In this document: positions 4,023-18,010 of the stretch, one piece after another
Numbering within the stretch: position 1 is the stretch's first letter
Layout of the letters: every line of letters begins with the position of its first letter
IMG/VR virus record: IMGVR_UViG_3300021957_000014
Location: 1 to 64,000 of that record
From: a virus
Lineage: Duplodnaviria > Caudoviricetes
Length of the DNA: 64,000 bases
Direction: 5' to 3' (one strand)
Notes under the pieces: model-generated
What the model saw: the letters and a program-made list of their open reading frames with translations, nothing else
What the model was told of the DNA's origin: nothing
Database searches by the model: none
Position numbers and translations under genes: made by a program

Positions 4023-5639
4023 TTAAAATGTTCCGCCGTCAATACCAGTGATAGCTACTGCACCCGAAGTTACCGTGAAGTTTGCAGAAGCAAAACTTGC
4101 GATACCTTTGTTAGATGTTGTTGCATCTTCACCAGCGACTGTTACTGTTCCGCCAGAGTATGATGCATCCATCCCTTCTCCAGCTGCAACGATAACAACA
4201 CCAAGGTTAGAACCTGTACCAACTTCTGAAGCGATTGTAATCGCACCATCAGCATTAGTTACATCAATTCCTTCACCAGCAGTTAGAGTTGCAAGTTCCA
4301 TGTCTCCATTAGAACCATTACCAACCATCAACTGTCCAGCTGTTGGAGCTGCACCATCGATAGATGTAATTGAACCACTTAATGCAAGACCAGTACCTTC
4401 GATTCCACCAAATGCTACATTACCAGCACTTCCACTGAAGACTGAAGATGTATCTGTTGCATCTTGGATAAATGTGAATTTACCAGTTGAATCGTCTAAA
4501 CCAAAGAAACCAACTTTAGCAGCTGACCCATTGTGCCAGTTGAATTTGATACCTCTGTCTAAGTTATCGTCTGAAGTTCCTTCACCGATTTCAAATACAG
4601 GGTCATCAATTTCTACTGTTGTAGAGTTAACTGTTGTTGTTGTTCCGTTTACTGTCAAGTTTCCTGAAACAGTTAAGTTTCCTGAAGCTGCAATGTTTGT
4701 AGATGTGATGTCATCAGATGTAAGTGTTCCATCAACGTCTACGTTGTTGAAAGTTACGTTAGATGTTGTTGCAACTGCCTGACCAATAGCGAAAGTCGCT
4801 GCTTGACCTGAAACAGAAGTTGTTACACCAGTTCCACCAGTAAATGTGATTGACTGAGAGTCTAAGTCGACTGCACCAGTTCCACTATCACCAGCAAGGT
4901 CTAAGTCCTGTGCTGTTACTTGTGAATCTACATATGCTTTAACAGATTGCTGAGAAGGAACTTTGACTGCAGAGTCAGAAGCCATATTGTCTTCGTCTAC
5001 TAAGAAGTCGATTTTTCCTACTGTTACATTACTGTCTAGAATCTTAGCAGTTGTAACTTTATCGTTTCCGATTGTTACTGCACCACTAGATGCCATAGTA
5101 ACGTCACCACTCATTGATACGTTGTCAAAAGAATTACTTCCGTCATGAACAAGTAGTTGTCCACCTGTTGGAGAAGAAATATCTGAATCCGTTGCACCTG
5201 CTAGTGTTGATGTTGTTGATAAGAATGATAAGTTACCACTGCCATCTGTACCGATGACTTGGTTAGCAGAACCATCCGCTGTAGGTAGAGTAAAGGTTGT
5301 CGAAGCACCTAATACGTCAGCAGCTTTTAATGCAACGAAGTTCGTTCCATTATCACTGTCTTCCATTAACTGTACACTTGCACCTGCTGTAGCACCATTA
5401 CCAACTTTGAAGTTGGATGGAGTTGCAGCTGAACCTGCTAACATATCCGTATAATACTTACCACCGATGGCTTGTATTAATGGAGTACTGTTATCAGAAT
5501 CTACGGATTCAATATAAAGTTTTGCTCCGGCACCCGAATTCGACCTATCCTGTACGTACGCTAATTCACCTTCCGAAAGGTCGGAGATAGCTGGTGCAGA
5601 TACACCTGTACTTCTTTTAATCTGAATTACTGTTGCCAT
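4023..5639 (-). CDS. Tail fibre protein
   Basis: 538 aa. N-terminus IQIKRST...LSEGELAY; GNLTVSGNLTVNG fibre motif; C-terminus IDGGTF. Confidence 0.85.
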   Translation of the reverse strand: MATVIQIKRSTGVSAPAISDLSEGELAYVQDRSNSGAGAKLYIESVDSDNSTPLIQAIGGKYYTDMLAGSAATPSNFKVGNGATAGASVQLMEDSDNGTNFVALKAADVLGASTTFTLPTADGSANQVIGTDGSGNLSFLSTTSTLAGATDSDISSPTGGQLLVHDGSNSFDNVSMSGDVTMASSGAVTIGNDKVTTAKILDSNVTVGKIDFLVDEDNMASDSAVKVPSQQSVKAYVDSQVTAQDLDLAGDSGTGAVDLDSQSITFTGGTGVTTSVSGQAATFAIGQAVATTSNVTFNNVDVDGTLTSDDITSTNIAASGNLTVSGNLTVNGTTTTVNSTTVEIDDPVFEIGEGTSDDNLDRGIKFNWHNGSAAKVGFFGLDDSTGKFTFIQDATDTSSVFSGSAGNVAFGGIEGTGLALSGSITSIDGAAPTAGQLMVGNGSNGDMELATLTAGEGIDVTNADGAITIASEVGTGSNLGVVIVAAGEGMDASYSGGTVTVAGEDATTSNKGIASFASANFTVTSGAVAITGIDGGTF

Positions 5640-5784
5640 TTTTATTTTCCTTTAAATAAAATTAATTAGTTGTGTTTCTCGTTCACTATCCCGAGAAGTT
5701 GATTGCATAATATAGTCTGTCCACTCACAATGTGGGTCGTTGTCTCACTGTCGACAACCTTGATTTGTACTAGTATTTAGACAA

Positions 5785-6030
5785 TTAAAACGTTCCACCG
5801 TCTAGTACGGTAGTTGTTGTCCACTTATCTGACGTTGCATCATATGATAAGAGTCCGTCATCTGTTTCAGATGCGTTTACGTCTGCAAGTTCATTGATTG
5901 ATTTTGCAGTAATGTCTGTTGAAGATGCAGAAGTTCCACCCATAGCAACCTGTGTTGCTTTGATGTTTCCACCACCAGTGACTTTACCACCAACGGTTAC
6001 AACTCTACTTAATGTTCCTCTAATTGCCAT
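5785..6030 (-). CDS. Small fibre connector protein
   Basis: 81 aa. Contains the INELADV...LLSYDATSDKW fibre repeat; C-terminus LDGGTF. Confidence 0.75.
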   Translation of the reverse strand: MAIRGTLSRVVTVGGKVTGGGNIKATQVAMGGTSASSTDITAKSINELADVNASETDDGLLSYDATSDKWTTTTVLDGGTF

Positions 6031-6034
6031 ATTA

Positions 6035-6364
6035 TCACCTCGTTACACTTGGGGTTACGATGGCTTGTCCTTCTATTACTCTAGTAGTTGTTGAACCACT
6101 AGTTACAGTCATATCATATACATAACGACCTGGCTCCAATGCTCCGCTTTGTGCATCAGTTAATGATAATGTTACCTTACCATCGGATGCTGATACTGAT
6201 GTTGTAAATGTTGCACTTGCACTTGAGGAAGTATAAGTCTTTCTCATTTGTGCTGCTGCAGTATAACCTGTTAAGTTAAGAACATTTCCAGTTGCATCGG
6301 TTACATCTACAGTAATACTGAAGTCTGTATGTTGGTCGATGAATATGTTTGCAAGAATAGCCAT
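6035..6364 (-). CDS. Conserved T4-like virion adaptor protein (BppU/Ig-like)
   Basis: ANIFIDQ.TDFS...LTGYTAAAQMRK...GRYVYD...RVIEG...V.P.VT is a widespread marine myovirus family. Late promoter TATAAATA at 6370-6377. Confidence 0.8.
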   Translation of the reverse strand: MAILANIFIDQHTDFSITVDVTDATGNVLNLTGYTAAAQMRKTYTSSSASATFTTSVSASDGKVTLSLTDAQSGALEPGRYVYDMTVTSGSTTTRVIEGQAIVTPSVTR

Positions 6365-6400
6365 GTAACTATTTATACCTTTTTAAGTTTTACTTAAATG

Positions 6401-7585
6401 TTAACCACCAAACTCGCCCTCTGAATACTGAGCAGTTGGTATAGATTGGTGAACTTTTCGTGCTGTTCCACTATCGTTTACGTGAACCTCGTCTAATTTT
6501 CTTAAAGTTCCACTATCGTTTACAAAGACACCTTTAACTTTTGCATGTCTAGGTATGACTCTAGTAGTAGTATAAGTGACTTGATATGTGAATGGACTTC
6601 TATGTTGATATGTTACTTGACTACCAGCATTATAAAAGAAAGGTGTTTGATTGTTTCTAATATTAGGTTCTTGTCCTTGTACTGAGTTTTGATAAGTGAA
6701 AGGTGACCTATGTTGATAAGTAAACGGTGTTTGTCCATTTGCAATGTATGGATATGGTAATTGCCTACTTCTAATATTAGGTTCTTGACCACTTGCAATA
6801 TATGGGTAAGTTACATTAGTATTAGCAGGTATAGGGTTTTGTCCAGTTCTTTGATACGTAAACGGACTTCTATGCTGATAGGTAAATGGTTGTCGACCAG
6901 TTCTTTGATATGTGAATGGAGTCTGACTTGCCTTTACAACATTTGTCTGTGCATTGCTAGGATTTCTATATGTAAACGGAGACTGATGCTGATATGAAAC
7001 AGGTGTAAGTGCTTGTCTTGCATACGTAAATGGTGACCTATGATTATAAGTTAACGGACTTCTATGTTGATATGATGCAGGCTGTCTAGCATTCACTGGG
7101 TTCCTATAAGTGAAAGGTGACCTGTGATTGTATGTAAACGGTGCTTGATTGTTTCTAATATTAGGTTCTTGTGCATTACGTATATTAGGTTCTTGTTGAT
7201 TTCTAATATTTGGTTCTTGTGCATTCACTGGATGTCTATATGTAAATGGTGACCTGTGATTGTACGTAAACGCTGTTTGACTGCTCCTAATATTTGGTTC
7301 TTGTGCATTTACAGGGTTTCTATAAGTGTTAGGTTGCCTTGCGTTTGCAATACTTGGTTCTTGTCCATTCACTGGACTTCTATACGTAAATGGTGACCTA
7401 AAGTTGTACGTAAACGGTGTTCGACCAGTTCTATCATAAGTAAAAGGTTGTCGTGCATCCTTAGTCTCGTTTGACTGTGCATTTGCTATATACGGATATG
7501 GTTGCTGTGCGTTCACAATGGAAGGCATCGCATAATCAACGATTAACGGATTTCGATATGGATATGGTTGTTGTCCTGTTGCCAT
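6401..7585 (-). CDS. Q/P/Y/R-rich modular repeat protein (predicted 'return strand' of a zipper fibre)
   Basis: 394 aa. About 340 aa of HRSPFTY / QEPNIR / QQPYPYIA / RNPV modules, then two VxVNDSGTxRK motifs. Confidence 0.85.
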   Translation of the reverse strand: MATGQQPYPYRNPLIVDYAMPSIVNAQQPYPYIANAQSNETKDARQPFTYDRTGRTPFTYNFRSPFTYRSPVNGQEPSIANARQPNTYRNPVNAQEPNIRSSQTAFTYNHRSPFTYRHPVNAQEPNIRNQQEPNIRNAQEPNIRNNQAPFTYNHRSPFTYRNPVNARQPASYQHRSPLTYNHRSPFTYARQALTPVSYQHQSPFTYRNPSNAQTNVVKASQTPFTYQRTGRQPFTYQHRSPFTYQRTGQNPIPANTNVTYPYIASGQEPNIRSRQLPYPYIANGQTPFTYQHRSPFTYQNSVQGQEPNIRNNQTPFFYNAGSQVTYQHRSPFTYQVTYTTTRVIPRHAKVKGVFVNDSGTLRKLDEVHVNDSGTARKVHQSIPTAQYSEGEFGG

Positions 7586-9315
7586 TATACAAATGGCCCC
7601 CCACCGCCACCGCTACCGCCATTATTAAATGCTTTTGCATAAACAGTTCCAGCACTATAACTAGTATACAATGATGTTTCTCCTGTTTTAGAAACTCTTA
7701 CCACAAAACTAGTACCAGTACTGGTTACTGTTGCTTCTGCTTCACCTTGGTTACTCACAGATGCTGTCCAGTGAAAAAATGCAGCATTTTGTGTAGTCCC
7801 ATTCCATAAATTATAATATGTATTTTTTGCTTTGTATAAATTAGAGGTTGTTGCATACTCATGAGGCGCAAAAGCGATGCCTTTGGAGCTATACCCAAAC
7901 TCTCCAGTAGAATTCCATTTTACTGCCCATGACCACGTACTGTCAATTCCTGCTGGGGAATGATGGTTTATAGTATCTGCATATGTAGGGGCGTGGGAAG
8001 TATCTGTACTCTCTATGCCGTACCATTTGGCCTTAACAGTAGCTGCTGTTGTTCCATTATAAAAGAATTCCATAGCAACTTTGGTATTGCAAGCGCTACC
8101 AGACTGAGTATTGACTTCTTTATTCCAGGCTCTGGTTGGAGAGACTGGGAGCATTGGAGTTGCCCCAGCGTTAGCAAGTGTAGCAGCTGGGTTGCCAGGG
8201 CCCCAAATTGTAGTTCCAGTTGGATTTGAATCATCCCCATCGATACCATCAAATATGTAAGGTCTCTGAGCAATCAAAGGTTGTTGTTGTGATGTAGTTG
8301 CTGGTGTTTGCAAAGAATAAGTAAACGGGTTTCGGCCCTGTCTTGCATACGTAAACGGTGACCTATATTGATAAGTAAACGGTGTTTGTCCATTTGCAAT
8401 GTATGGATACGGTTGTTGAGCACTCTTAATCGTAGGTTGTTGTGCGTCTACAGGATTCCTATATGTGAAAGGAGTTCTCAGTTGATATGTAAACGGAGTC
8501 TGACTATCCACTGGATTCTGATAAGTGAACGGACTTCTATATTGATATATCGCAGGTTGTCTTGCCTCTCTAATATTAGGTTCCTGTGCGCTTACAGGGT
8601 TTCTATAAGTGAACGGAGACTGGTGGTCATAAGTCAATGGACTTCTATGATTGTACGTAAACGGTGACCTATGTTGATATTCTGAAGGTTGACGTGCCTG
8701 TCTAATATTAGGCTCTTGTCCATTCACTGGATTTCTATAGGTGAAAGGTGTTTGACTGTTTCTAATATTAGGTTCTTGTTGACTTCTAATATTTGGTTCT
8801 TGTCCAGCTGCAATGTACGGATACGGCACCTGTGCATCACGTATGTTTGGTTCTTGTGCGTTTACAGGATTCTGATAAGTAAAAGGACTGGGATGCTGAT
8901 AAAACCCAGGCTGTCTTGCATTTGCTATATACGGATATGGTTGTTGTGCAGACTTAGTCTCGTTTGACTGGGCAGCTGCAATGTATGGATATGGTTGTTG
9001 ATGTTGATATATCGCAGGTTGCTGTCCCTGTCTTGCATACGTAAATGGACTTCTATGTTGATAAGTTGTTGGTGTCTGACCTTGTCTTGTATAGGTAAAA
9101 GGTTGACGTGCATCTCTAATATTAGGTTCCTGTGCGCTTACAGGATTGTTGTATATAAATGGAGACCTATACTGATATGTTGATGGTTGTCGACCCGATG
9201 CAGGGCCCTGAACTTCCATTGTTCGAATGTTCGGTTGTTGAGCATTTACAGGGACACGGGCAATGTATGGTTGCTGTACCTCTGTTGCTATATTTACAAA
9301 TAATTCTTCAGACAT
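7585..9315 (-). CDS. Q/P/Y/R-rich modular repeat protein with C-terminal globular domain (predicted 'outgoing strand' plus tip)
   Basis: 576 aa. Same modules over aa ~16-352, then a ~220 aa W/T/S-rich non-repetitive domain ending GGSGGGGG. Confidence 0.85.
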   Translation of the reverse strand: MSEELFVNIATEVQQPYIARVPVNAQQPNIRTMEVQGPASGRQPSTYQYRSPFIYNNPVSAQEPNIRDARQPFTYTRQGQTPTTYQHRSPFTYARQGQQPAIYQHQQPYPYIAAAQSNETKSAQQPYPYIANARQPGFYQHPSPFTYQNPVNAQEPNIRDAQVPYPYIAAGQEPNIRSQQEPNIRNSQTPFTYRNPVNGQEPNIRQARQPSEYQHRSPFTYNHRSPLTYDHQSPFTYRNPVSAQEPNIREARQPAIYQYRSPFTYQNPVDSQTPFTYQLRTPFTYRNPVDAQQPTIKSAQQPYPYIANGQTPFTYQYRSPFTYARQGRNPFTYSLQTPATTSQQQPLIAQRPYIFDGIDGDDSNPTGTTIWGPGNPAATLANAGATPMLPVSPTRAWNKEVNTQSGSACNTKVAMEFFYNGTTAATVKAKWYGIESTDTSHAPTYADTINHHSPAGIDSTWSWAVKWNSTGEFGYSSKGIAFAPHEYATTSNLYKAKNTYYNLWNGTTQNAAFFHWTASVSNQGEAEATVTSTGTSFVVRVSKTGETSLYTSYSAGTVYAKAFNNGGSGGGGGPFV

Positions 9316-9316
9316 A

Positions 9317-10939
9317 TCATATCACAAACCATATGTGCCCAACTTCCGTACTCCCTACAGATGTAGGTGCGCTCGACACTATTTCATAATCCAATTTAAT
9401 TTTATCACCAACACCACTGCCTGAGTGTGTTAACCCATCGCCTGGGTCGGTATCAAATCTCAATGTGTTTCCATCTCCAGTGTACGTTTCGGTAATACCA
9501 GTACCACCCACTGTCAAAGCAGCGACATCATCATCTCCATATAATGGTGGTGCATTTAGTAGAATCTTATCAGATGCATCGTCATAAGATGCAGTAATGT
9601 TTGTATGAGAACTATGGTTTAATAGACCCGATACTTTGTCTTGTGCGTATTCTTGGAAAGATACAGTGGCACCACTTACTTGGAATGTTAAATCACCAGC
9701 AATATCTACATCGCCATCGATGTCAACATTACCACTAATATCTAAAGAACCTGCGTCAAGTTCTCCACTAAGTGTTATGTTTCTGAATCCAGTAATGTCT
9801 TTATTTGAATCTACTGCAACTACTTTACTAGCAATTACATTTCCGTTTGTTAGGTCATCGATTTTTTCTAAATCTGTTTGGTCTATTCTTGCAGCTCCGA
9901 TTACGAATTCACTTCCAGCAATTATGTCTGTAGATGAAGTAATGTCTCCAGTTGTATCAATGTTTCTGAATCCAGTAATATCTTTATTTGAATCTACTGC
10001 AACTACGTTACTAGCAGTAACACTTCCTAGTGTAGTTCCGTCAAGATAGTTAATCTCTGTAGTAGATAAAGTTGCACCGTCTAGTATTTCTAGTTCGGCC
10101 TCATCTACTCTTGCACTTCCGATTACGAATTCACTACCAGCAATTATGTCTGTAGATGAAGTAATGTCTCCACCAGCAGTTACCGTTGAAGTTAAAACTG
10201 CAGTTGTACCACTTAGATTACCGTTGAATATTGTTGAGGTGATAGAACTAAAACCTGTACCCACACCGCCTGTAATCGTTGCTGTTGAATCGGTGAAGGT
10301 TGGTGCAGTGATTGTATGTCCAGTGTCTACTGTAAAGTTTCCATCATGCAATGTTTGACCATACATTGCAATTGTGTTTCCACCACTAAGAGCTGTTACC
10401 CTGTTGGCTGCATCTGCATAGTTACCATTTATAATAACACCACTATCGTTATTATTATAAATTGTATTTGCAGCGGTCTCTGTAAAGAACCCAATTGATT
10501 TAGCACCAATTGTAGATGTTCCTAAGTATGAACCTGTGAATGAGTATACAACAAGTTTATCACCTGCTGATGCACCACTTGTTAGAGATAGTTTGAAATA
10601 AACGTTTCCAGTAACAGAAGATATAGAATAATCTGCACCCTCTAATAATAGAGTAGAATTTCTGAATACTTGGAATCTATCCTTTCTTAATCTAAGTGGA
10701 TTGTCGAAATCGTCAACTTCCATTGTTGTACCCAAACCAAATTCAGTTTGGCCACTTGTACAAGTATAGATTAACTCTTGAAAGAAGAAAGACTTGTCTT
10801 CTAAACTATTCAGAGCATCAATAACTGTTTCTTGATTCTCTGTTCTCAGGCCAGAAATATCACCAACATTGACTGCCAGTTCATTGTACTTCGTTCTAAA
10901 CTCTTCAATAGTTGAGTATGTGTCTACTGTTTTTGCCAT
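9317..10939 (-). CDS. Trimeric fibre protein
   Basis: 540 aa. N-terminus TIEEFRTKYNEL; internal duplication (GDITSSTDIIAGSEFVIG...VAVDSNKDITGFRN twice); C-terminus SSAPTS...GHIWFVI. Confidence 0.8.
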   Translation of the reverse strand: MAKTVDTYSTIEEFRTKYNELAVNVGDISGLRTENQETVIDALNSLEDKSFFFQELIYTCTSGQTEFGLGTTMEVDDFDNPLRLRKDRFQVFRNSTLLLEGADYSISSVTGNVYFKLSLTSGASAGDKLVVYSFTGSYLGTSTIGAKSIGFFTETAANTIYNNNDSGVIINGNYADAANRVTALSGGNTIAMYGQTLHDGNFTVDTGHTITAPTFTDSTATITGGVGTGFSSITSTIFNGNLSGTTAVLTSTVTAGGDITSSTDIIAGSEFVIGSARVDEAELEILDGATLSTTEINYLDGTTLGSVTASNVVAVDSNKDITGFRNIDTTGDITSSTDIIAGSEFVIGAARIDQTDLEKIDDLTNGNVIASKVVAVDSNKDITGFRNITLSGELDAGSLDISGNVDIDGDVDIAGDLTFQVSGATVSFQEYAQDKVSGLLNHSSHTNITASYDDASDKILLNAPPLYGDDDVAALTVGGTGITETYTGDGNTLRFDTDPGDGLTHSGSGVGDKIKLDYEIVSSAPTSVGSTEVGHIWFVI

Positions 10940-11148
10940 TACGTCCTATCCAATAATTGTTGAAGCATTCCTTTCATTTGTGATACTTCAGACTTAAGTG
11001 TGTCTATCTCTTCTCTCTGTGCTAGAAACCTTTGTTTTCTAACTTTATGTAATCTATACTGTTCTACATCTGTATTTATAATAGCATGAGAAGATTCTTC
11101 TCTATAAAGATGGGATTGTCCTTCGACTTTAATACCCATCTTATGCAA
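10939..11148 (-). CDS. Conserved small protein following the DUF4815 gene
   Basis: IKVEG.SHLYR...AIINTD plus coiled-coil tail, in its usual position in marine T4-like phages. Confidence 0.75.
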   Translation of the reverse strand: MHKMGIKVEGQSHLYREESSHAIINTDVEQYRLHKVRKQRFLAQREEIDTLKSEVSQMKGMLQQLLDRT

Positions 11149-14100
11149 GTGCCATACATCTAAGTGCAGTTACCGCTGGTACTATAGATGTACTTGTTCC
11201 TTGACCTACTATTTTAACCACAAACCCACTAAACTCGGGTAAATCGTTTACAGTAAACTCGTACTCTTTAAAGTTCCTTGCATCTGACTCTGTAACGACA
11301 TCGGGTGAACCATCGATGTTGAAATATTCAAAACCAACATCATCGAGTAAAGTTTCTTCATCATTCTTGATAATTTTATACATCAATTTAAGTTCAGTTG
11401 TTGGTGGTCTAAAGATATCTGCAATAACTTTTAAAGATGTTGCTGGAGTCTTAAGATTAACCTTTCTTGTAACATATACCATTGCATTATTATCACCCTC
11501 TGCTTCTGTTGATGGAATATATCCTGTACCAACTGGAAGGGATTTTGTGGTACCGTTGTTTTTAGTACCATCTGCACTGTCTATGTTGTTAATTCTGTTT
11601 GCAATACCTAGACAACCCGCTGCTTGAACATCAATCATAGGTGATATATTAGGGTTGAATGACATTAACTGTAACTGTAAGTCAAATGATTTACTGGATG
11701 ACATCTCTCTAGATTCATTTTCGGGTGAAGCTACGATGGATGGTGAACCAAAGAATACATTATCATTCAATGTTACAAATCTGTTTGCAGTTCTTCTTGT
11801 ATATGCACCCCCATCAATAATACCTTCGGGTGAATATTGAGGTGTTGTAAGAACGTTTGCACTAATGATTGTCCCTTTCAAGTTAACTGAAGGAATCATT
11901 GTGTGCAATGAATCAAAGTAGTAGTTTCTTGTTGATGTTACATTCGAACCACCACCTGTTGTTGTTTCGAATGCATAAGAACTTGCAAATGAGTATCCTG
12001 CTAGAGATGGAGTAAATCTAAATGAATCTATTCCTCTATCTGCAAGAGTGCTATGTAATGCATTGATTACTTCAATAGGACATCCACCTAAAGTGTCTTC
12101 GGGTGTTCCTAGTATTACACTTACATCTGCATTTGAACTTCCAATGTTTGTAATTGTAATGTTATCGGCTGCAGTATAACCCTGTCCACATTTGAGAATG
12201 TTTACATCTGTAATTGCACCACTTGATATGATGACTTCACACTTGATTCCACTACCTGTTCCACCACTATGGGTATCACCTGTACAGTCGATTGTTCCAT
12301 CTGCTGGTAGTGCATCACTACCAATCTGTGAGAAACTTGTTACTACTACCGCAGAATTCTGTTTATCTCCAATAACACCTGCTATTGTTACATTATCTTT
12401 GTTACTAGTATCGTCATACAAACCATGCATGTATGAATACACTTTTAACTTGTTGTCTGCATATGTTTCAATTGGATTAACCTGTAACTTAGCTGCTGGT
12501 AGAGCATCGTTTTCAAAATGCACACTACCAACCTTATCAATCTGATATTTTGCAGACTTTATATCAAACTTAAGGTCATCTGTTTGTTCCGCAGTCCATG
12601 TTGATGCGTTCTGTGATAAGAACAATGAACCAGCGTATGGTTGTCCACTAATAGTTTCTCCAGTTGTTATATCTGTTTCACCCATTCTTGAAATAAATGC
12701 TTCATATTCATTTGAATTAGAATAGATAACAAAACAGTATTCAGTATCTTCTATCAAATGAACTGGAGAGTCAAATGTAAAGGTAGTTTTTAAAGAACCA
12801 TCAGCTGATATATTAATATCATCGGGATTTTTAGTAACATCTGAGAATGGTAGTACTAACTGGCCTGGATATCCATTAACCATGTTTCTGATTTGTACTG
12901 AACAAGGCATGAAAGTATCTTTTGTTGCAAAGTATAAATCTATTGAGGTTAAATCTAATCCACCTACAGTGTCAACTAAGAATGATTGAGCAAGTGGGTC
13001 TCCCCATCCTCTTGGGTTACCACCATTAACTACTTGAACCATAGGTCTACGTAGTTGCAATTCAGGCATCTCTCTTCTATCTTGGATGACCATTACTTGT
13101 GGCACGTGTGGTGGTGTTGGGAATGTTATTACTGGCGGTACAAATACAACCTCTGGCGCTATGTTTGGAACCTCAAATAAATCTAACACACGTCGGCCTT
13201 CTTCCCATGGGTTCTCAATTGGGTCTGGAACTGGTATAACTACTGGGTCTGGCGTTAAAATCGGAGGCCCAGGCACAAAGATAGGCCCTGTTGGGTTTCT
13301 TGGTGGCGGAGTGTTATCAACTGGTATTTCATTAATTGGTCTTGGTGGTAACTCGGGTGCAGTTGTATCGTGACGTTCAGAGTTTAGTCTCTCACCTCTT
13401 TTTGAGAAGTCTCTTGTTGATGAACGGTCTTCTCTAATTACTCTTGCATTTCTTGTAGAGATAACTTCTGTTTGAGATGCTTGTAAGATACCTTGAGCAG
13501 TATATAATGTGGTTCCCTGTGAAGAAGGGTTTGCCATATTATAGAAACTTGATGTAATTCTCAACTCTCTTGTACCTGTTGGGAATCTTTGAACTGCAGT
13601 ATTAGGCAATTCAAAATAAGCTCTTAGTCTTCCATTACCATCTGTTTTAAGGTGAGATGCAGTAGTCGTACCACTATCTTGTGAATAGGCTGCACTGTAA
13701 GGTCTTACATATTTATTTACCATTATGTTATCAAAGTAGAAGTAATGGTTTGAATTTGGTTTCAAGTTGGTTGCATCAATTTCAATAGTCTTTGCACGAA
13801 TGAATGGTATCAAAGACATTGATACTACTCTATCATTTCTTGTTTCTACTAAATCTTCAACAACTGTAGTTGTTACACCAGTTCTTGTTTGAATTTCGGG
13901 TGTATCTGTAATCTCTCTAGTAATCTGTAACCCAGCAACCCATTGTCCACCTTGTAGTGGGTCTCCACTCCATGAACCATTAGAAGTTGCTTGTACTTCT
14001 GTAGATGTAGTAGTAGGTTCTCCGACCCATGTTGTTTGCCATGAGTTCCATACAGTTCCCAATGCATTAGCATTTTCAGCCATTACTGCATCAAAGTTAC

Positions 14101-17100
14101 CCTCTCTGTTTACTGTAACTTCAGGCAGTCTTTCTGTGTCTTGCCAAATATCTGTATCGGGTGATAACTTAATATTACCAATAAATGCAAACACATGATA
14201 GGGGTTAACATTTATTGAACGTGATGCTTTATTTTGGTTCACATAACTAACTTCATCATATGGTAAAGTAATTATATCACCAGTTTTCTGATAGTTTGAT
14301 GATGCACCTTCGTTCTGTGTAACACCAAAGAACTGTGTGAATGACTTAGGTCTTAACATACCCATTCCAGTATCAATAGCACAGTTATAGTCGGGATGGT
14401 TTACATCACCAATCTTGTGACCTCTAAAGTTGTCTACTAAGAAGCCTGACTTATATCTGTCGAAACCATCTGCATCTAAAATTTGTTTTGTTTGAGTATC
14501 CTTTTCTAATAGAGAAAGAGATGTAATTCTTTCAAGGTTAGTAACTCTGTTTTGTATCTTACCGATATCCTTCATGGTATATCGTCTATGGTCGAAGCTT
14601 CTTACTCGTATGTCTTTTAACTTGTTAGTATAAGCTGGGACTCTAATTTCGAACAATTGAATACAGTCGTCTAACCCTGCTGGTTTAGTCGGTGACAATG
14701 CTGGTGTTCCTTGAGATATTTCAAACTTACCTTTTTTATGTAAAAAGATTTTATCAATTCTTGGAACATAGAATGAGATGTCACCTTTAAGAGATGTTCC
14801 ACTAACAGGAACGTCCACTGCGTTAGCATTTGTTTCGGAGATACCAGTTCTTGCACCTAAGAAAGAACGACCAGTCTCGTAACCAAATGGTGCATACACT
14901 GCTCCACTAGTAGAGTTTGATAAGTCAATTGGATTTGATGGGTCTTGTGAATTGTTTGTTCCGAATGTTGTTGTACCAATAATCTGACCTACCACTGGTC
15001 TAAAGTCTAGACAATCTGAAAGTTCAAATGTTCCATCGGGTTCTAAACCACCCAAGTCTACTTTGTTTGGAGAGTAAACTGGAATCTGAGAATAATCGAT
15101 TGCTGAATATGAGGATACATCAAAGAAGTCACCACCACCCGATACTCTGAAGTAATCGAACAATACCATGATTGGGCCGTTAGGTGTTGGTTGCCCAGGC
15201 TTCAATGTCATTTTTGATAAGTCATAAAAACCATCTCTCTGACCATTGTCAAAGAAGTATCTATCTTTAATGTCGGGTGAACCTTGACTAATAGTTGCAC
15301 CTAAAACTCCAACTGCAACGGATGTCTGTCCTACTACTGTTTCACCACCAACGAATGTTGCACCGTCTTTAGATGTATAATACCAATATGATGCATTACC
15401 ACCACCGTTGTTAATGAGTATTGCTCTTGCGCCCGATGTTTGTCCTATGAGTTCTTCATAATTAACAAACGTACCACTTGATGTGGTAATAACACCGTTA
15501 GGTGTGATTGGTGTTCCGTCAACACCTTCGTATACTGCAATAATCTTATGTACGTCTGCAACACCTAATGTGATATCTTTATCATCGTATGCAGTTCCGT
15601 AGAACCCATTTGAAGTTCTAGGACTCCCTACTTTAAGACATCTTGCTTGAGATAATGCTTTACCTCTTGCAGTCGGGTCTGAGATAGTAACTGTGTAAGT
15701 TACATCAATAACTGCATTGTTATTTGATGATGCAACGGTGCATGCCAATGTTTCTGTTGAACCACTTGTAGTTATATTTGGACTCAAGTCTTCGATGTTT
15801 AGTACATCACCAGCTGCATAACCACCTGCTGGTTCTCTTACTGAGATTGCAAAATTGTCTGTGTTTCTTGCACCGAATGTTTCTCCAGCATTAGTAGTGA
15901 TACTGAAACCACCACTGGAAACTAATTTAGTGACCTGTCTTCTTACTGTAACAAAATCTGGGCTGTGTGTTTTAACCCAATCTCTTGGCCATGCATGGAT
16001 GTTTGCAGTTTGGTTTTGGTCAATCAGTTTTGCACGTCTTCGAACTGCATTACCACTGTATGAGTCTGTACCGCCAGAGGTCAAAGTTAAACTTGTTTCT
16101 GTTTCCACTGAAGCAATGGTATTAACTGCACCTGCTTGGTCTAATAGTTGGTCACCTTCTTTTAATTCTTTTATGAACTGAGTTGCAAAACCTGTAACGG
16201 TAGTGCTATTATCCATTGTAATTGTTCCAGCTAGAACTTGGTCTGAATCTAAGAAGACATCTCCAGTAAAGATTTCTCTACCAGTAACGTTTGGTAATTG
16301 GGCAACTGACCTTGCACGGTCAATGTTGTATGCTCTAACTGCAGTATTATTGGCTGCAGTAATTGTTGCATTGCTGGTTTGACCAACTGCTGTTATTGCA
16401 TCATCAGTTATGAATGCACCCTGTACATCATGAACAAATAGTCCTGCTGTGGTACCACTTCCTTCAATGTGATGAACTATAGCACTTGCACCACTTACAC
16501 TACCAGTGACTTTATCACCTGCTGTAAATGTATTTGTCTGTGTTCCAGTAATTTTAGTGAACATCTTGATATCGAACATATACAGATTGAATAATGTATC
16601 TGTACCATAGACATCATTTGTGTCTACACCACTGACATGGTCTACGTTTCTAACTCTTGCAGTACCAATATTTCCAGTTGAAGATAATGATGTAGCATCT
16701 GTGTCTGATATACCTAAAGTTGCTTTTAATCCATCATACAATAGTACTGGATTGTGTGGGTCGATAGTATCCTGTCCAGTTTCATTACCGAACTCGGGTA
16801 GACCATGAGCATTATATACTCGTAATTTGTTTCCTAATCTAATGGGTGCTGATACATTATTTAATGATTCTGTTGTTCTTGCTTTGTTTATGGTTAGAGT
16901 TGTTGTACCAACTTTATCAATCTCATATCCTCTTACATAAGCCTTGCCTGGCGACACCATGAATACAAATTTATCATCGTCTCCACCATTTCCTTTTGCA
17001 TAAAACCCTAAGTTCTCACCAGTATCTAAATGTTGTCTTGTAGATGCAGTGAACTGATTTACAACGAAGTCACCATTTGCATCGAAGGTTCTTCTTGCAA

Positions 17101-18010
17101 GAGTGTTTTCTATTTCTGCATATTTTGTTTTATCAATCTTGAGTGTTATAACACCTTGGATTACTCTTGTTAATTCAACGAAAGATGTACCCAACACTGA
17201 ATCTAAGGTATGTTTACCTAGTACTAGATTAAACTGTAATCTGTCTGCTCCACCAGCGTTCTCATTTGAGGAACCTGCTGCATTGTCTAATAATGAAAGG
17301 TCTGCAGATGAGGTCACCAATGTCTCGGTGATGTTTAGACCTACTTTGAAAGATGGAGCTCCATTGTATTTTTCTAACAGAATTATCTGTTTATCGACCT
17401 TTGTAAAAAATCCTCTTACAAATACAACACCTTCTGATATCTCTGCAATTGATGCTCTACCTAAAGGTTTTTCTGATATTGGTTGAATTTCGAAATCATT
17501 ATGAGAAGCTGAATCTGCAGTAACCGTACCACTTGAATTGTAACCAACTAGTTCTAAAGTTTCTGATGCTGAGAACAAGAAGTCATTACTTTCATTCGTA
17601 CCTTGTTGTACTGGTCTAACAAATAATGTTAGTTTATCGTCTGTAGTTTCTGCTGTACTTGTTACTACCTTTGCAACCACTCCACTAGTTTGTCCTCTGA
17701 CATACTTATTATGAAATGATTCTCTATAAGTTTCTACTGCAGTATCACCAAGTGGGTTAGGATTTGAAGCCTTTACCTTGACAAAGAAAACTTCCATGTC
17801 GATGTTTGCTTGTGCGCCTTGGATGATAGTCCCTTCTTCAAAGAAGTGGTCTCCAAGTCTAGAAATTTGGTTTTGTAGAATTGACTGAGACTGTGTTAAT
17901 TCCCTTGCTTGTAAAGGACGGCCTGCTCTATAAAGAACTTTATGAAATTTCTTATCTTCGGAATAGTCGTCATAATAAGGTGATATATTTAAGTCTGTCT
18001 TCTCTGCCAT
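11141..18010 (-). CDS. Large baseplate/structural protein, DUF4815 (VrlC-like)
   Basis: 2289 aa. Hallmarks TDLNISPYYDDY...RPLQARELTQSQSILQNQ, LARRTFDANGDF, SGFLVDNF, DPLAQSF. Confidence 0.9.
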   Translation of the reverse strand: MAEKTDLNISPYYDDYSEDKKFHKVLYRAGRPLQARELTQSQSILQNQISRLGDHFFEEGTIIQGAQANIDMEVFFVKVKASNPNPLGDTAVETYRESFHNKYVRGQTSGVVAKVVTSTAETTDDKLTLFVRPVQQGTNESNDFLFSASETLELVGYNSSGTVTADSASHNDFEIQPISEKPLGRASIAEISEGVVFVRGFFTKVDKQIILLEKYNGAPSFKVGLNITETLVTSSADLSLLDNAAGSSNENAGGADRLQFNLVLGKHTLDSVLGTSFVELTRVIQGVITLKIDKTKYAEIENTLARRTFDANGDFVVNQFTASTRQHLDTGENLGFYAKGNGGDDDKFVFMVSPGKAYVRGYEIDKVGTTTLTINKARTTESLNNVSAPIRLGNKLRVYNAHGLPEFGNETGQDTIDPHNPVLLYDGLKATLGISDTDATSLSSTGNIGTARVRNVDHVSGVDTNDVYGTDTLFNLYMFDIKMFTKITGTQTNTFTAGDKVTGSVSGASAIVHHIEGSGTTAGLFVHDVQGAFITDDAITAVGQTSNATITAANNTAVRAYNIDRARSVAQLPNVTGREIFTGDVFLDSDQVLAGTITMDNSTTVTGFATQFIKELKEGDQLLDQAGAVNTIASVETETSLTLTSGGTDSYSGNAVRRRAKLIDQNQTANIHAWPRDWVKTHSPDFVTVRRQVTKLVSSGGFSITTNAGETFGARNTDNFAISVREPAGGYAAGDVLNIEDLSPNITTSGSTETLACTVASSNNNAVIDVTYTVTISDPTARGKALSQARCLKVGSPRTSNGFYGTAYDDKDITLGVADVHKIIAVYEGVDGTPITPNGVITTSSGTFVNYEELIGQTSGARAILINNGGGNASYWYYTSKDGATFVGGETVVGQTSVAVGVLGATISQGSPDIKDRYFFDNGQRDGFYDLSKMTLKPGQPTPNGPIMVLFDYFRVSGGGDFFDVSSYSAIDYSQIPVYSPNKVDLGGLEPDGTFELSDCLDFRPVVGQIIGTTTFGTNNSQDPSNPIDLSNSTSGAVYAPFGYETGRSFLGARTGISETNANAVDVPVSGTSLKGDISFYVPRIDKIFLHKKGKFEISQGTPALSPTKPAGLDDCIQLFEIRVPAYTNKLKDIRVRSFDHRRYTMKDIGKIQNRVTNLERITSLSLLEKDTQTKQILDADGFDRYKSGFLVDNFRGHKIGDVNHPDYNCAIDTGMGMLRPKSFTQFFGVTQNEGASSNYQKTGDIITLPYDEVSYVNQNKASRSINVNPYHVFAFIGNIKLSPDTDIWQDTERLPEVTVNREGNFDAVMAENANALGTVWNSWQTTWVGEPTTTSTEVQATSNGSWSGDPLQGGQWVAGLQITREITDTPEIQTRTGVTTTVVEDLVETRNDRVVSMSLIPFIRAKTIEIDATNLKPNSNHYFYFDNIMVNKYVRPYSAAYSQDSGTTTASHLKTDGNGRLRAYFELPNTAVQRFPTGTRELRITSSFYNMANPSSQGTTLYTAQGILQASQTEVISTRNARVIREDRSSTRDFSKRGERLNSERHDTTAPELPPRPINEIPVDNTPPPRNPTGPIFVPGPPILTPDPVVIPVPDPIENPWEEGRRVLDLFEVPNIAPEVVFVPPVITFPTPPHVPQVMVIQDRREMPELQLRRPMVQVVNGGNPRGWGDPLAQSFLVDTVGGLDLTSIDLYFATKDTFMPCSVQIRNMVNGYPGQLVLPFSDVTKNPDDINISADGSLKTTFTFDSPVHLIEDTEYCFVIYSNSNEYEAFISRMGETDITTGETISGQPYAGSLFLSQNASTWTAEQTDDLKFDIKSAKYQIDKVGSVHFENDALPAAKLQVNPIETYADNKLKVYSYMHGLYDDTSNKDNVTIAGVIGDKQNSAVVVTSFSQIGSDALPADGTIDCTGDTHSGGTGSGIKCEVIISSGAITDVNILKCGQGYTAADNITITNIGSSNADVSVILGTPEDTLGGCPIEVINALHSTLADRGIDSFRFTPSLAGYSFASSYAFETTTGGGSNVTSTRNYYFDSLHTMIPSVNLKGTIISANVLTTPQYSPEGIIDGGAYTRRTANRFVTLNDNVFFGSPSIVASPENESREMSSSKSFDLQLQLMSFNPNISPMIDVQAAGCLGIANRINNIDSADGTKNNGTTKSLPVGTGYIPSTEAEGDNNAMVYVTRKVNLKTPATSLKVIADIFRPPTTELKLMYKIIKNDEETLLDDVGFEYFNIDGSPDVVTESDARNFKEYEFTVNDLPEFSGFVVKIVGQGTSTSIVPAVTALRCMALA

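What the first reader, a model, noticed from the sequence alone, without database searches (positions are those of the whole stretch)
6401..9315. Two adjacent proteins are module-level reverse complements: a protein 'base-pairing' code for an antiparallel zipper fibre
Cutting both proteins at their regularly spaced prolines gives five module types: I (P-NIRxxQx, 8 aa), Y (P-xxYxHRS, 8 aa), G (P-FTYxRxGxx, 10 aa), J (P-YPYIAxxQx, 10 aa) and V (P-FTYRN-P-VxxQx, 12 aa). The 576 aa protein reads N to C: V I* Y V I G Y G Y J I J Y V I J I I V I Y Y Y V I Y V Y V I J Y G Y. The 394 aa protein read C to N gives: V Y* I V Y J I J I G Y G I V Y G Y Y V Y I I I V Y I V I V Y G I J I. All 34 positions obey I:Y, G:J, V:V. 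Partner modules have equal length (the first, terminal V is the loosest match), and the one irregular pair (I*/Y*) is 16 aa in both. The order is aperiodic (e.g. YYY faces III, II faces YY), so tandem duplication alone cannot explain it. Both genes are on the same strand and the I and Y codons are not DNA reverse complements, so the complementarity is at the protein level. Inference: the chains form a register-locked antiparallel two-stranded beta-ribbon of ~335 residues per strand (roughly 100 nm if extended). It would carry the globular domain of the 576 aa protein at its tip, with length and register encoded like a duplex. I know of no description of this system, and it would be a programmable protein-pairing code.
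Basis: partly seen in the sequence, partly recalled or inferred. Interest (0 to 1): 0.97.

Follow-up and report, generated by a model that had tools for sequence, protein, structure and literature searches.

The report
Mirror-complementary two-protein phage fibre shaft
Two neighbouring genes of an uncultured marine T4-like phage encode repeat proteins that match unit for unit when one is read backwards, and dozens of related phages keep the match, so the chains most likely zip head-to-tail into one long tail-fibre shaft by a readable pairing rule that I could not find described.

Summary
Protein A (576 aa) read N to C and protein B (394 aa) read C to N are complementary at all 34 modules. No order among 200,000 shuffles exceeded 20 of 34.

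The code reduces to two classes (PFTY-type "alpha", xxQx-type "beta") in three lengths (6, 8, 10). Alpha always faces beta of equal length. One gapless register (A i + B j = 358) covers 322 residues per chain.

It is not a DNA reverse complement. In 47 homologous pairs, with shafts of 163-322 residues, 7997 residues face the opposite class and 363 the same class. Module orders differ between phages, yet each pair stays complementary, with compensatory swaps. Facing residues co-vary at even positions only.

Single-gene homologues in the same genomic slot fold back on themselves by the same rule. A+B is therefore a split hairpin: up, tip domain, down.

The physical structure is not shown. AlphaFold2 gave no confident shaft and the complex job gave no answer, so the number of chains per fibre is unknown. 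No family, solved structure or paper matched.

This scan met the same kind of pair earlier on other genomes.

The parts
7585..9315 (-). Gene A, 576 aa: N-terminal cap, 322-residue repeat shaft, C-terminal tip domain
   Evidence: ORF list. 422 relatives at E<=0.001, none named. No Pfam or PHROG family.
9271..9315 (-). A residues 1-15 (MSEELFVNIATEVQQ): conserved N-terminal cap, shared with the single-chain homologues
   Evidence: N-termini of 120 relatives. In the register it lies opposite B's C-terminal domain. Its role as half of a base domain is an inference.
8305..9270 (-). A shaft, residues 16-337: 34 modules (41 units in the six-type alphabet), 46 of 46 prolines on even positions
7588..8304 (-). 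A residues 338-576: linker and all-beta tip domain (about 351-566)
   Evidence: AlphaFold2 gives pLDDT 60-84 over most of residues 395-567, all strands. Best PDB match is only Z 5.0, to pilus and adhesin-type beta sandwiches.
7526..7585 (-). B residues 1-20: N-terminal stretch next to the tip; B's ATG overlaps A's stop (TAATG)
   Evidence: 21 of 46 pair loci have overlapping stop and start, and 45 of 46 lie within 13 nt.
6560..7525 (-). B shaft, residues 21-342: mirror complement of the A shaft (A i + B j = 358), 39 of 39 prolines on odd positions
6404..6559 (-). B residues 343-394: small C-terminal domain with two VNDSGTxRK repeats, conserved in B proteins and at the C-terminus of single-chain homologues
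   Evidence: phrog_13729, function unknown, E 2.2e-6. KVKG anchor found in 47 pairs. Four short strands at pLDDT about 50-57 in the P0016 model, which is weak.
6035..6364 (-). Conserved downstream 109-aa Ig-like gene, a possible fibre assembly factor or accessory protein
   Evidence: Follows within 300 nt in 43 of 46 pair loci and 12 of 12 single-chain loci. Matches phrog_3304 'L-shaped tail fiber protein assembly', E 1.3e-22, and phrog_1084.
9317..10939 (-). Upstream 540-aa fibre-like gene; homologues lie upstream in most related loci
   Evidence: tblastn hits in most loci. phrog_30158, function unknown.

Best explanation
A and B are the two arms of one long virion fibre shaft. A runs outward from a base formed by A's N-terminus and B's C-terminal domain, ends in a beta-sandwich tip domain that is the likely receptor binder, and B runs back antiparallel along A. 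The two arms are extended (beta-like) strands.

Each alpha unit (P-x-T-Y..., 6, 8 or 10 aa) lies against a beta unit (P-x-I/V-...-Q-x) of the same length. Unit boundaries, marked by prolines, coincide, which fixes one register over 322 residues.

Specificity sits on the even-numbered side chains. The sub-code pairs xHRS with PNIR and x(N/A)xQ with PYIA. The invariant alpha Tyr4 probably packs against a small beta residue. Odd positions are constant.

The stop/start overlap would couple translation and give equal amounts of both chains.

Shown: the complementarity, its conservation and its covariation. Inferred: physical pairing, beta conformation, tip and base roles, fibre function. Unknown: copies per fibre. 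I lean towards a trimer of hairpins, at about 55%.
For: (1) 34 of 34 modules match, with 282 residues facing the opposite class and 0 the same class in one gapless register.

(2) In 47 non-identical homologous pairs with shafts of 163-322 residues, one gapless antiparallel register per pair puts 7997 residues opposite the other class and 363 opposite the same class. This beats the parallel orientation and all 100 module shuffles in 43 of 47 pairs.

(3) In token alignments, reverse-complement beats every one of 100 shuffles in 44 of 46 pairs, with 845 matches and 38 mismatches.

(4) The cognate B is the best or tied-best partner for 32 of 42 distinct A proteins, and median non-cognate scores are several-fold lower.

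(5) Compensatory change: at A274/B77 the window has alpha8 facing beta8, while L001 has beta8 facing alpha8. A-shaft module strings differ by 10-13 edits from L004, L007, L011 and L014, and B strings by 9-12, yet each pair stays complementary.

(6) The length of A's repeat array tracks B's shaft length: r = 0.958, slope 0.97, 47 pairs, measured without partner information.

(7) In 332 distinct facing alpha8:beta8 pairs, mutual information is concentrated at alpha2, alpha6 and alpha8 against beta2, beta4, beta6 and beta8. z is 14-27 even against permutation of partners within the same locus. Odd positions are conserved and even ones variable in both classes.

(8) Proline parity: 46 of 46 in A and 39 of 39 in B here; 96.5% and 93.9% across the family. 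Proline faces proline at i+j = 359 for 36 of 49 A prolines here and 946 of 1469 in the family.

(9) Single-chain homologues, with an A-like N-terminus and a B-like C-terminus, show the same mirror rule internally. 19 of 25 beat all 50 shuffles; P0016 has 136 residues facing the opposite class and 2 the same. They occupy the same slot upstream of the Ig-like gene.

(10) Context: the pair sits in the baseplate and tail-fibre gene block of a T4-like marine myovirus.
Against: There is no physical evidence: no proteomics, no structure, no binding data.

The rule is not perfect in distant pairs. There are 38 token mismatches and 363 same-class residues in total. L037 and L070 do not beat shuffles in the token test. 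4 of 47 pairs fail the gapless control. 10 of 42 A proteins score as well or better with a close relative's B. 6 of 25 single-chain forms do not beat shuffles. My six unit types clearly miss some units of divergent lineages.

The pairs are phylogenetically related, so the counts are not independent events. The PSSMs were trained on the family itself, although without partner information.

The shaft has no obvious hydrophobic face (Q 15%, P 14%, Y 10%), so what holds two bare strands together is unclear. This is one reason to suspect a higher-order assembly.
Confidence: 0.8

Rival explanations
1. B is not a permanent part of the fibre. It acts as a templating chaperone or molecular ruler that pairs transiently with A's shaft during folding and is then released.
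For: Phage fibres often need a dedicated chaperone encoded next to them (gp38 and gp57A for T4 gp37: passages in PMC9659904 and PMC6957217). This rival would still explain the complementarity.
Against: In single-chain homologues the returning arm is covalently part of the protein and ends in the same conserved C-terminal domain. B keeps a conserved terminal domain of its own. The 1:1 stop/start coupling suits a stoichiometric partner. The separate conserved 109-aa gene is a better chaperone candidate.
Confidence: 0.08
2. A and B each form their own homo-oligomeric fibre or solenoid and do not touch. The mirror pattern is then a by-product of shared repeat evolution.
For: Most known phage fibres are homotrimers (recalled general knowledge). 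Both proteins share the same unit types, with many forward DNA matches of 83-97% identity between the genes.
Against: I know of no mutational process that produces reversed and class-swapped order at the protein level. Forward identity of the module strings is 0 of 34. Compensatory swaps, matched lengths and cross-chain residue covariation require selection acting on the pair.
Confidence: 0.03
3. The arms pair antiparallel, but as polyproline-II-type helices or another non-beta extended form rather than as beta strands.
For: A proline every 6-10 residues. Polyproline-II-type assemblies occur in phage adhesins (recalled, not checked here).
Against: Unit lengths of 6, 8 and 10 are not multiples of 3. 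Proline parity and covariation both show a strict two-residue period, which fits beta geometry and not a three-residue polyproline-II period. This is an inference from periodicity only.
Confidence: 0.07
4. The pattern is a DNA-level artefact: gene B is an inverted duplicate of gene A read on the other strand.
For: Reverse-complement order is what an inverted DNA repeat would give. AATATT (Asn-Ile) within PNIR is itself palindromic, as seen in the antisense ORFs.
Against: Both genes are on the same strand. The reverse-strand blastn finds nothing beyond 10-13 nt at E = 2.6. Antisense frames carry 5-37 stops and 0 module hits.
Confidence: 0.01

Closest known systems
Needle domain of the T4 long-tail-fibre tip, gp37 (Bartual et al. 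2010, as described in passages of PMC9659904 and PMC6957217)
   Same: A phage fibre in which the chain runs out to a receptor-binding head and comes back. [quoted passage not shown] Domain D10 is built from residues 811-881 plus 1010-1026, so the two ends of the segment lie together. A Gly/Phe large-small contact between strands is essential (G921/F970), comparable to the Tyr/small-residue contact I infer here.
   Different: gp37 is one chain and its needle is short (about 215 residues for needle plus head). It has no modular alphabet and is held by seven iron atoms bound to histidines. Here there are two chains (or one in the single-gene forms), 163-322 residues per arm, a discrete unit code, and 0 HxH motifs in 20,461 shaft residues. 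There is no sequence match to any PDB chain.
Single-gene homologues of this same family (e.g. P0016, P0026, L072-L098), all uncharacterised
   Same: The same N-terminal cap, unit types, C-terminal domain and genomic slot. The same mirror rule applies between the two halves of one chain.
   Different: One polypeptide with a short irregular middle region instead of a separate gene and a large C-terminal tip domain.
Antiparallel coiled-coil arms of SMC/Rad50-type proteins
   Same: Two long antiparallel segments whose lengths and interruptions must match so that the far-end and near-end domains meet.
   Different: Alpha-helical heptads within one chain, with no two-class unit alphabet. Here a proline every 6-10 residues excludes helices.
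Short-repeat beta fibres of phages, e.g. the octapeptide triple beta-helix of T4 gp5C
   Same: Short, even-length repeats building a long thin beta structure in a tail protein.
   Different: Those are parallel homotrimers of one repeat type. No antiparallel partner and no complementarity are involved.

Membership tests
T4 gp37-type needle / receptor-binding tip | Sequence similarity to gp37 or its relatives | tested here: not met
   phmmer of A and of B against all PDB chain sequences found 0 hits at E<=1. No Pfam family.
T4 gp37-type needle / receptor-binding tip | Histidine (HxH) sites binding iron along the needle | tested here: not met
   0 HxH motifs in the shafts of A and B, and 0 in 20,461 shaft residues of 47 pairs.
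T4 gp37-type needle / receptor-binding tip | The chain goes out to a head domain and returns antiparallel | tested here: inconclusive
   The topology is implied by the mirror register and by single-chain homologues. No structure was obtained.
T4 gp37-type needle / receptor-binding tip | Homotrimer | not testable with these tools
Any curated protein family (Pfam, PHROGs) | Profile match above threshold | tested here: not met
   A: no Pfam and no PHROG match. B: no Pfam match; only its C-terminal 34 residues match phrog_13729, function unknown.
Tail fibre of a T4-like myovirus (functional class, not a sequence family) | Encoded in the late baseplate/fibre gene block beside fibre and fibre-assembly genes | tested here: met
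   Neighbouring genes match PHROG families annotated baseplate wedge subunit, baseplate hub and tail lysozyme, and tail fiber protein. The downstream gene matches phrog_3304, 'tail fiber protein assembly'.
Tail fibre of a T4-like myovirus (functional class, not a sequence family) | Presence in the virion and binding to a host receptor | not testable with these tools
   No cultured phage in the 50,697-record collection carries a detectable homologue.

The most novel reading that the evidence does not exclude
This is a natural, evolvable protein-protein pairing code for extended strands. Two unit classes in three lengths, plus a residue-level sub-code on the even face (H..S with N.R; N/A..Q with Y.A; Tyr over Gly or Ala), specify partner, polarity and register over more than 300 residues, much as base pairing does for a duplex. 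Phages vary fibre length from about 160 to 320 residues per arm by matched edits in both arms. If so, the rule could be read, predicted and re-used to build heteromeric protein fibres of set length.
Probability: 0.55. Interest if true: 0.92.

Novelty: categorically new. Interest (0 to 1): 0.88.

Why it matters
If the two chains do pair as the sequences imply, this is a way of building a long thin protein rod that I could not find described. Two extended chains are held in register by a discrete unit-by-unit complementarity that can be read from sequence alone and that evolves by compensatory change, as RNA helices do.

It would explain how abundant marine myoviruses (relatives of SAR11 and OM43 phages) build and re-size a host-recognition fibre. 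It would give a sequence-only way to find the partner and the length of such fibres in metagenomes. It would also offer a natural template for designed heteromeric beta fibres.

It is also a case where structure predictors return nothing, yet covariation defines the contact map. That makes it a useful test target for structure prediction.

Tried and rejected
Structure prediction gave nothing usable.
- AlphaFold2 of A with a 17-row alignment left residues 1-357 at pLDDT about 25-30. Only the tip folded.
- AlphaFold2 of the single-chain homologue P0016 with 13 rows gave mean pLDDT 31 and no fold-back.
- The one complex job (A 1-130 with B 228-394, own alignments) returned 'no answer', ipSAE 0.00 in both runs, and the controls were not run. 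This is neither support nor evidence against binding.
- The fold search of the tip against about 48,000 PDB representatives found nothing above Z 5.0, only generic beta sandwiches.

Searches that found nothing:
- Megablast of 5000-11000 against 'phages'.
- tblastn of A and of P0016 against 'phages'. BLAST's low-complexity filter may hide the shafts, but the terminal domains did not hit either.
- The protein atlas showed only unnamed viral clusters, all with scores below 0.9.
- The window and the 86-kb virus record hold no second pair.

Literature: six searches found no description of such a pair. I saw listings and abstract starts only, and passages of PMC9659904, PMC6957217 and PMC7029224. 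PMC7029224 describes a hypervariable host-recognition cluster with tail fibres in pelagimyophages, but the passages I read do not mention mirrored repeats. Supplementary files were not consulted.

Method dead ends:
- The first PSSM retraining let the beta6 profile drift into noise. I retrained on units flanked by other units and used only that model afterwards.
- The first token test of single-chain forms with the untrained model was noisy and was replaced.
- The regex mis-split NETKSAQQ + PYPYIANARQ.
- L001 was first dropped by a too-strict anchor regex and was added back.
- Entropy matching could not separate the registers i+j = L and L+2. The covariation pattern fits L+2, where proline faces proline, but this is an inference.

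Rows left out: loci whose A or B gene was cut by a contig end, or whose next ORF lacked the KVKG-type anchor. Of the 87 ORFs with an A-like N-terminus listed, 46 pairs plus L001 were analysed and 12 loci were treated as single-chain. The rest were fragments or duplicates of the same contig.

It is TAATG.
Full report
WHAT IS THERE. The window is part of an 86-kb record of an uncultured T4-like marine myovirus. PHROG matches place the region in the baseplate and tail-fibre block. The nearest cultured phages by the gp6-like wedge protein are Methylophilales phage Melnitz and Pelagibacter phages Mosig and HTVC008M, at about 38-41% identity.

On the minus strand lie gene A (7585..9315, 576 aa) and gene B (6401..7585, 394 aa). 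A's TAA stop overlaps B's ATG by one base. A 109-aa Ig-like gene follows (6035..6364). A 540-aa fibre-like gene precedes (9317..10939).

A read N to C and B read C to N obey I:Y, G:J, V:V at all 34 positions. The repeat regions are A 16-337 and B 21-342, both 322 residues. The odd pair is 16 aa in both.

Five weak units are assigned by length and position rather than motif.

The composition of B allows 2.8e19 orders. 200,000 shuffles gave at most 20 of 34 matches (mean 8.1). Forward identity is 0 of 34.

The DNA is not an inverted repeat. The reverse-strand blastn finds only 10-13 nt matches at E = 2.6, and antisense frames hold no modules. It is not a plain tandem array either.

A SIMPLER STATEMENT OF THE CODE. 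V is a 6-aa PFTYRN-type half plus a 6-aa PVNAQE-type half. All units then fall into two classes:
- alpha: P-x-T-Y heads, with lengths 6, 8 (Y) and 10 (G);
- beta: xxQx tails, with lengths 6, 8 (I) and 10 (J).
The rule is that alpha of length n faces beta of length n. All lengths are even.

I built position-specific scoring matrices (PSSMs) for the six types. Seeds came from the window only, and retraining used family sequences one protein at a time, never with partner information. In the window, 36 of 39 classified A units face an exactly co-terminal B unit of opposite class. 282 residues face the opposite class and none the same class, at A i + B j = 358.

RELATIVES KEEP THE RULE WHILE EVERYTHING ELSE CHANGES. 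A has 422 relatives at E<=0.001 in the 5.8-billion-protein collection, none with a functional name. Scans of viral and metagenome contigs gave 98 loci. From these I extracted 47 non-identical A/B pairs (42 distinct module strings) and 12 single-gene loci.

Shafts range from 163 to 322 residues. Composition differs strongly between lineages. L013 and L016 have A almost all alpha8 and B almost all beta8. L017 has A rich in beta10/beta8 and B rich in alpha10/alpha8.

Token-level local alignment results:
- The reverse-complement mode scores above every one of 100 shuffles in 44 of 46 pairs.
- It is strictly the best of the four orientation/complement modes in 45 of 46 pairs.
- There are 845 matches, 38 mismatches, 134 pairs with an unclassified member and 56 gaps.

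A single gapless antiparallel register per pair gives 7997 residues facing the opposite class and 363 the same class. It beats the parallel orientation and all 100 module shuffles in 43 of 47 pairs.

The cognate B is best or tied-best for 32 of 42 A proteins. The exceptions are mostly near relatives.

Measured without any partner information, the end of A's repeat array and the position of B's C-terminal anchor correlate with r = 0.958 and slope 0.97.

COMPENSATORY CHANGE. The window and L001 (73% identity in A) have the same shaft length. At A274/B77 the window has PFTYQLRT (alpha8) facing PSIANARQ (beta8). L001 has PNIRNSQT (beta8) facing PATYQHQS (alpha8).

Against L004, L007, L011 and L014, the A-shaft strings differ by 10-13 edits and the B-shaft strings by 9-12. 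Each of these pairs still has 0-6 same-class residues.

RESIDUE-LEVEL SIGNAL AND GEOMETRY. In 332 distinct facing alpha8:beta8 pairs, mutual information is concentrated between alpha2, alpha6 and alpha8 and beta2, beta4, beta6 and beta8. It remains at z = 14-27 when partners are permuted only within the same locus.

The commonest combinations are alpha6/beta4 H:R (163) against N:A (49) and A:A (31), and alpha8/beta2 S:N (158) against Q:Y (54). xHRS units therefore face PNIR units, and x(N/A)xQ units face PYIA units.

Odd positions (P1, T/I3, R/Q7) are conserved in both classes and even ones are variable, apart from the invariant alpha Tyr4.

Shaft prolines sit on one parity: 46 of 46 in A and 39 of 39 in B here, and 96.5% and 93.9% across the family. 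At i+j = 359, 36 of 49 A prolines face a B proline; in the family this is 946 of 1469, against at most 71 at other offsets.

A strict two-residue period in unit lengths, proline phase, conservation and covariation is what extended beta strands give. It argues against helices (a proline every 6-10 residues) and against a three-residue polyproline-II period.

The covarying sums (i+j = 8, 10, 12 within an 8-mer) fit a physical register in which proline faces proline and alpha Tyr4 faces the small beta6 residue. In 10-mers it would face beta8 (Gly or Ala), and in 6-mers beta4. This last step is inference.

THE PAIR IS A SPLIT HAIRPIN. Thirteen of the 120 listed relatives, and 12 loci, encode one protein with A's N-terminal cap and B's C-terminal domain. 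Their N- and C-terminal halves obey the same mirror rule. 19 of 25 beat all 50 shuffles; P0016 has 136 residues facing the opposite class and 2 the same, and P0026 has 134 and 4.

They sit in the same slot. The Ig-like gene follows within 300 nt in 12 of 12 single-gene loci and in 43 of 46 pair loci.

The topology is therefore base, outward arm, tip, returning arm, base. In the window the chain is cut after a large tip domain. A 351-566 is predicted as an all-beta sandwich at pLDDT 60-84, with no clear PDB relative (best Z 5.0).

A's first 15 residues and B's last 52 end up together in the register. They are co-conserved across the family, so I infer that they form the attachment end.

WHAT IS NOT SHOWN. 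No tool gave a structure of the shaft (see Tried and rejected). The number of hairpins per fibre is open. The shaft is polar (Q, P, Y, N, T, R) and conserved on both faces. This, and the habit of phage fibres, make a trimer of hairpins (six strands) somewhat more likely to me than a bare two-stranded ribbon.

Distant lineages use units that my six profiles miss (L037, L070). The pairs share ancestry, so the counts overstate the number of independent events.

COMPARISON WITH WHAT IS KNOWN. The closest described thing is the T4 gp37 needle. [quoted passage not shown] Its D10 domain is made of residues 811-881 plus 1010-1026, and seven iron atoms are held by histidines (PMC6957217, passages).

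The present system works like that in topology, but it is not a member of that family. There is no sequence match and no HxH site. It has a much longer shaft, two genes and, above all, a discrete complementary unit alphabet. No Pfam or named PHROG family covers A or B's shaft.

Six literature searches found no description.

Earlier notes of this scan describe the same design in other genomes and reached similar conclusions. I treat them as leads, not evidence. I re-tested here their central claims: the mirror rule in relatives, matched indels and residue covariation.

VERDICT. Antiparallel register-locked pairing is strongly supported by evolution, though not by structure. The design lies outside any described family.

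Noticed in passing
L053:3501-5234 and L061:1555-3429 (A-type genes); also P0024: Some A-type homologues end in a Hint/intein-like domain immediately before their B gene: L053 matches Vint at 1.8e-8 and Hom_end_hint at 3.4e-8; L061 matches Hom_end_hint at 1.3e-9. A sub-family beginning MATGSQKVKTP..GW carries an intein splicing domain (P0024, 1.2e-10). A self-cleaving or ligating step at the tip is conceivable. The window's A has no such domain.
   Followed up: partly
window 6035-6364 (-): The 109-aa Ig-like protein is conserved directly downstream of both the pair form and the single-gene form. It matches phrog_3304, annotated 'L-shaped tail fiber protein assembly', at E 1.3e-22. It is a candidate assembly factor for the shaft.
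   Followed up: partly
window 7960-8229, 8368-8667, 8689-8967 (+): Open frames of 89-99 aa lie antisense to gene A. They contain 'SNIR'-like strings because AATATT (Asn-Ile) is a DNA palindrome. They carry no module hits and look like by-products of the repeat composition, not genes.
   Followed up: partly
window 4023-5639 and 5785-6030 (-): The 538-aa fibre protein and the 81-aa protein downstream both end in (I/L)DGGTF. The same is seen in the related locus L001. This is a possible shared docking motif within the fibre cluster.
   Followed up: no
window 6001-10000: GC skew is positive (+0.06 to +0.07) over the two genes, while neighbouring genes on the same strand are negative. This probably reflects the Q/P/N/Y/T-rich codon content of the repeats.
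   Followed up: no
L037, L070, L078, L086, L089 (pairs): Divergent lineages use further unit types, such as PYSFQQSYQN, PTTYQHQQ-PAPYQH and PYxANxQx, that my six profiles do not classify. The alphabet is probably larger than two classes by three lengths.
   Followed up: no
window 11141-18010 (-): A 2289-aa protein upstream of the fibre genes matches only PHROG families of unknown function (phrog_358, E 0). PMC7029224 places the pelagimyophage host-recognition cluster downstream of a 'VrlC' gene (passage). I did not test whether this ORF is that gene.
   Followed up: no
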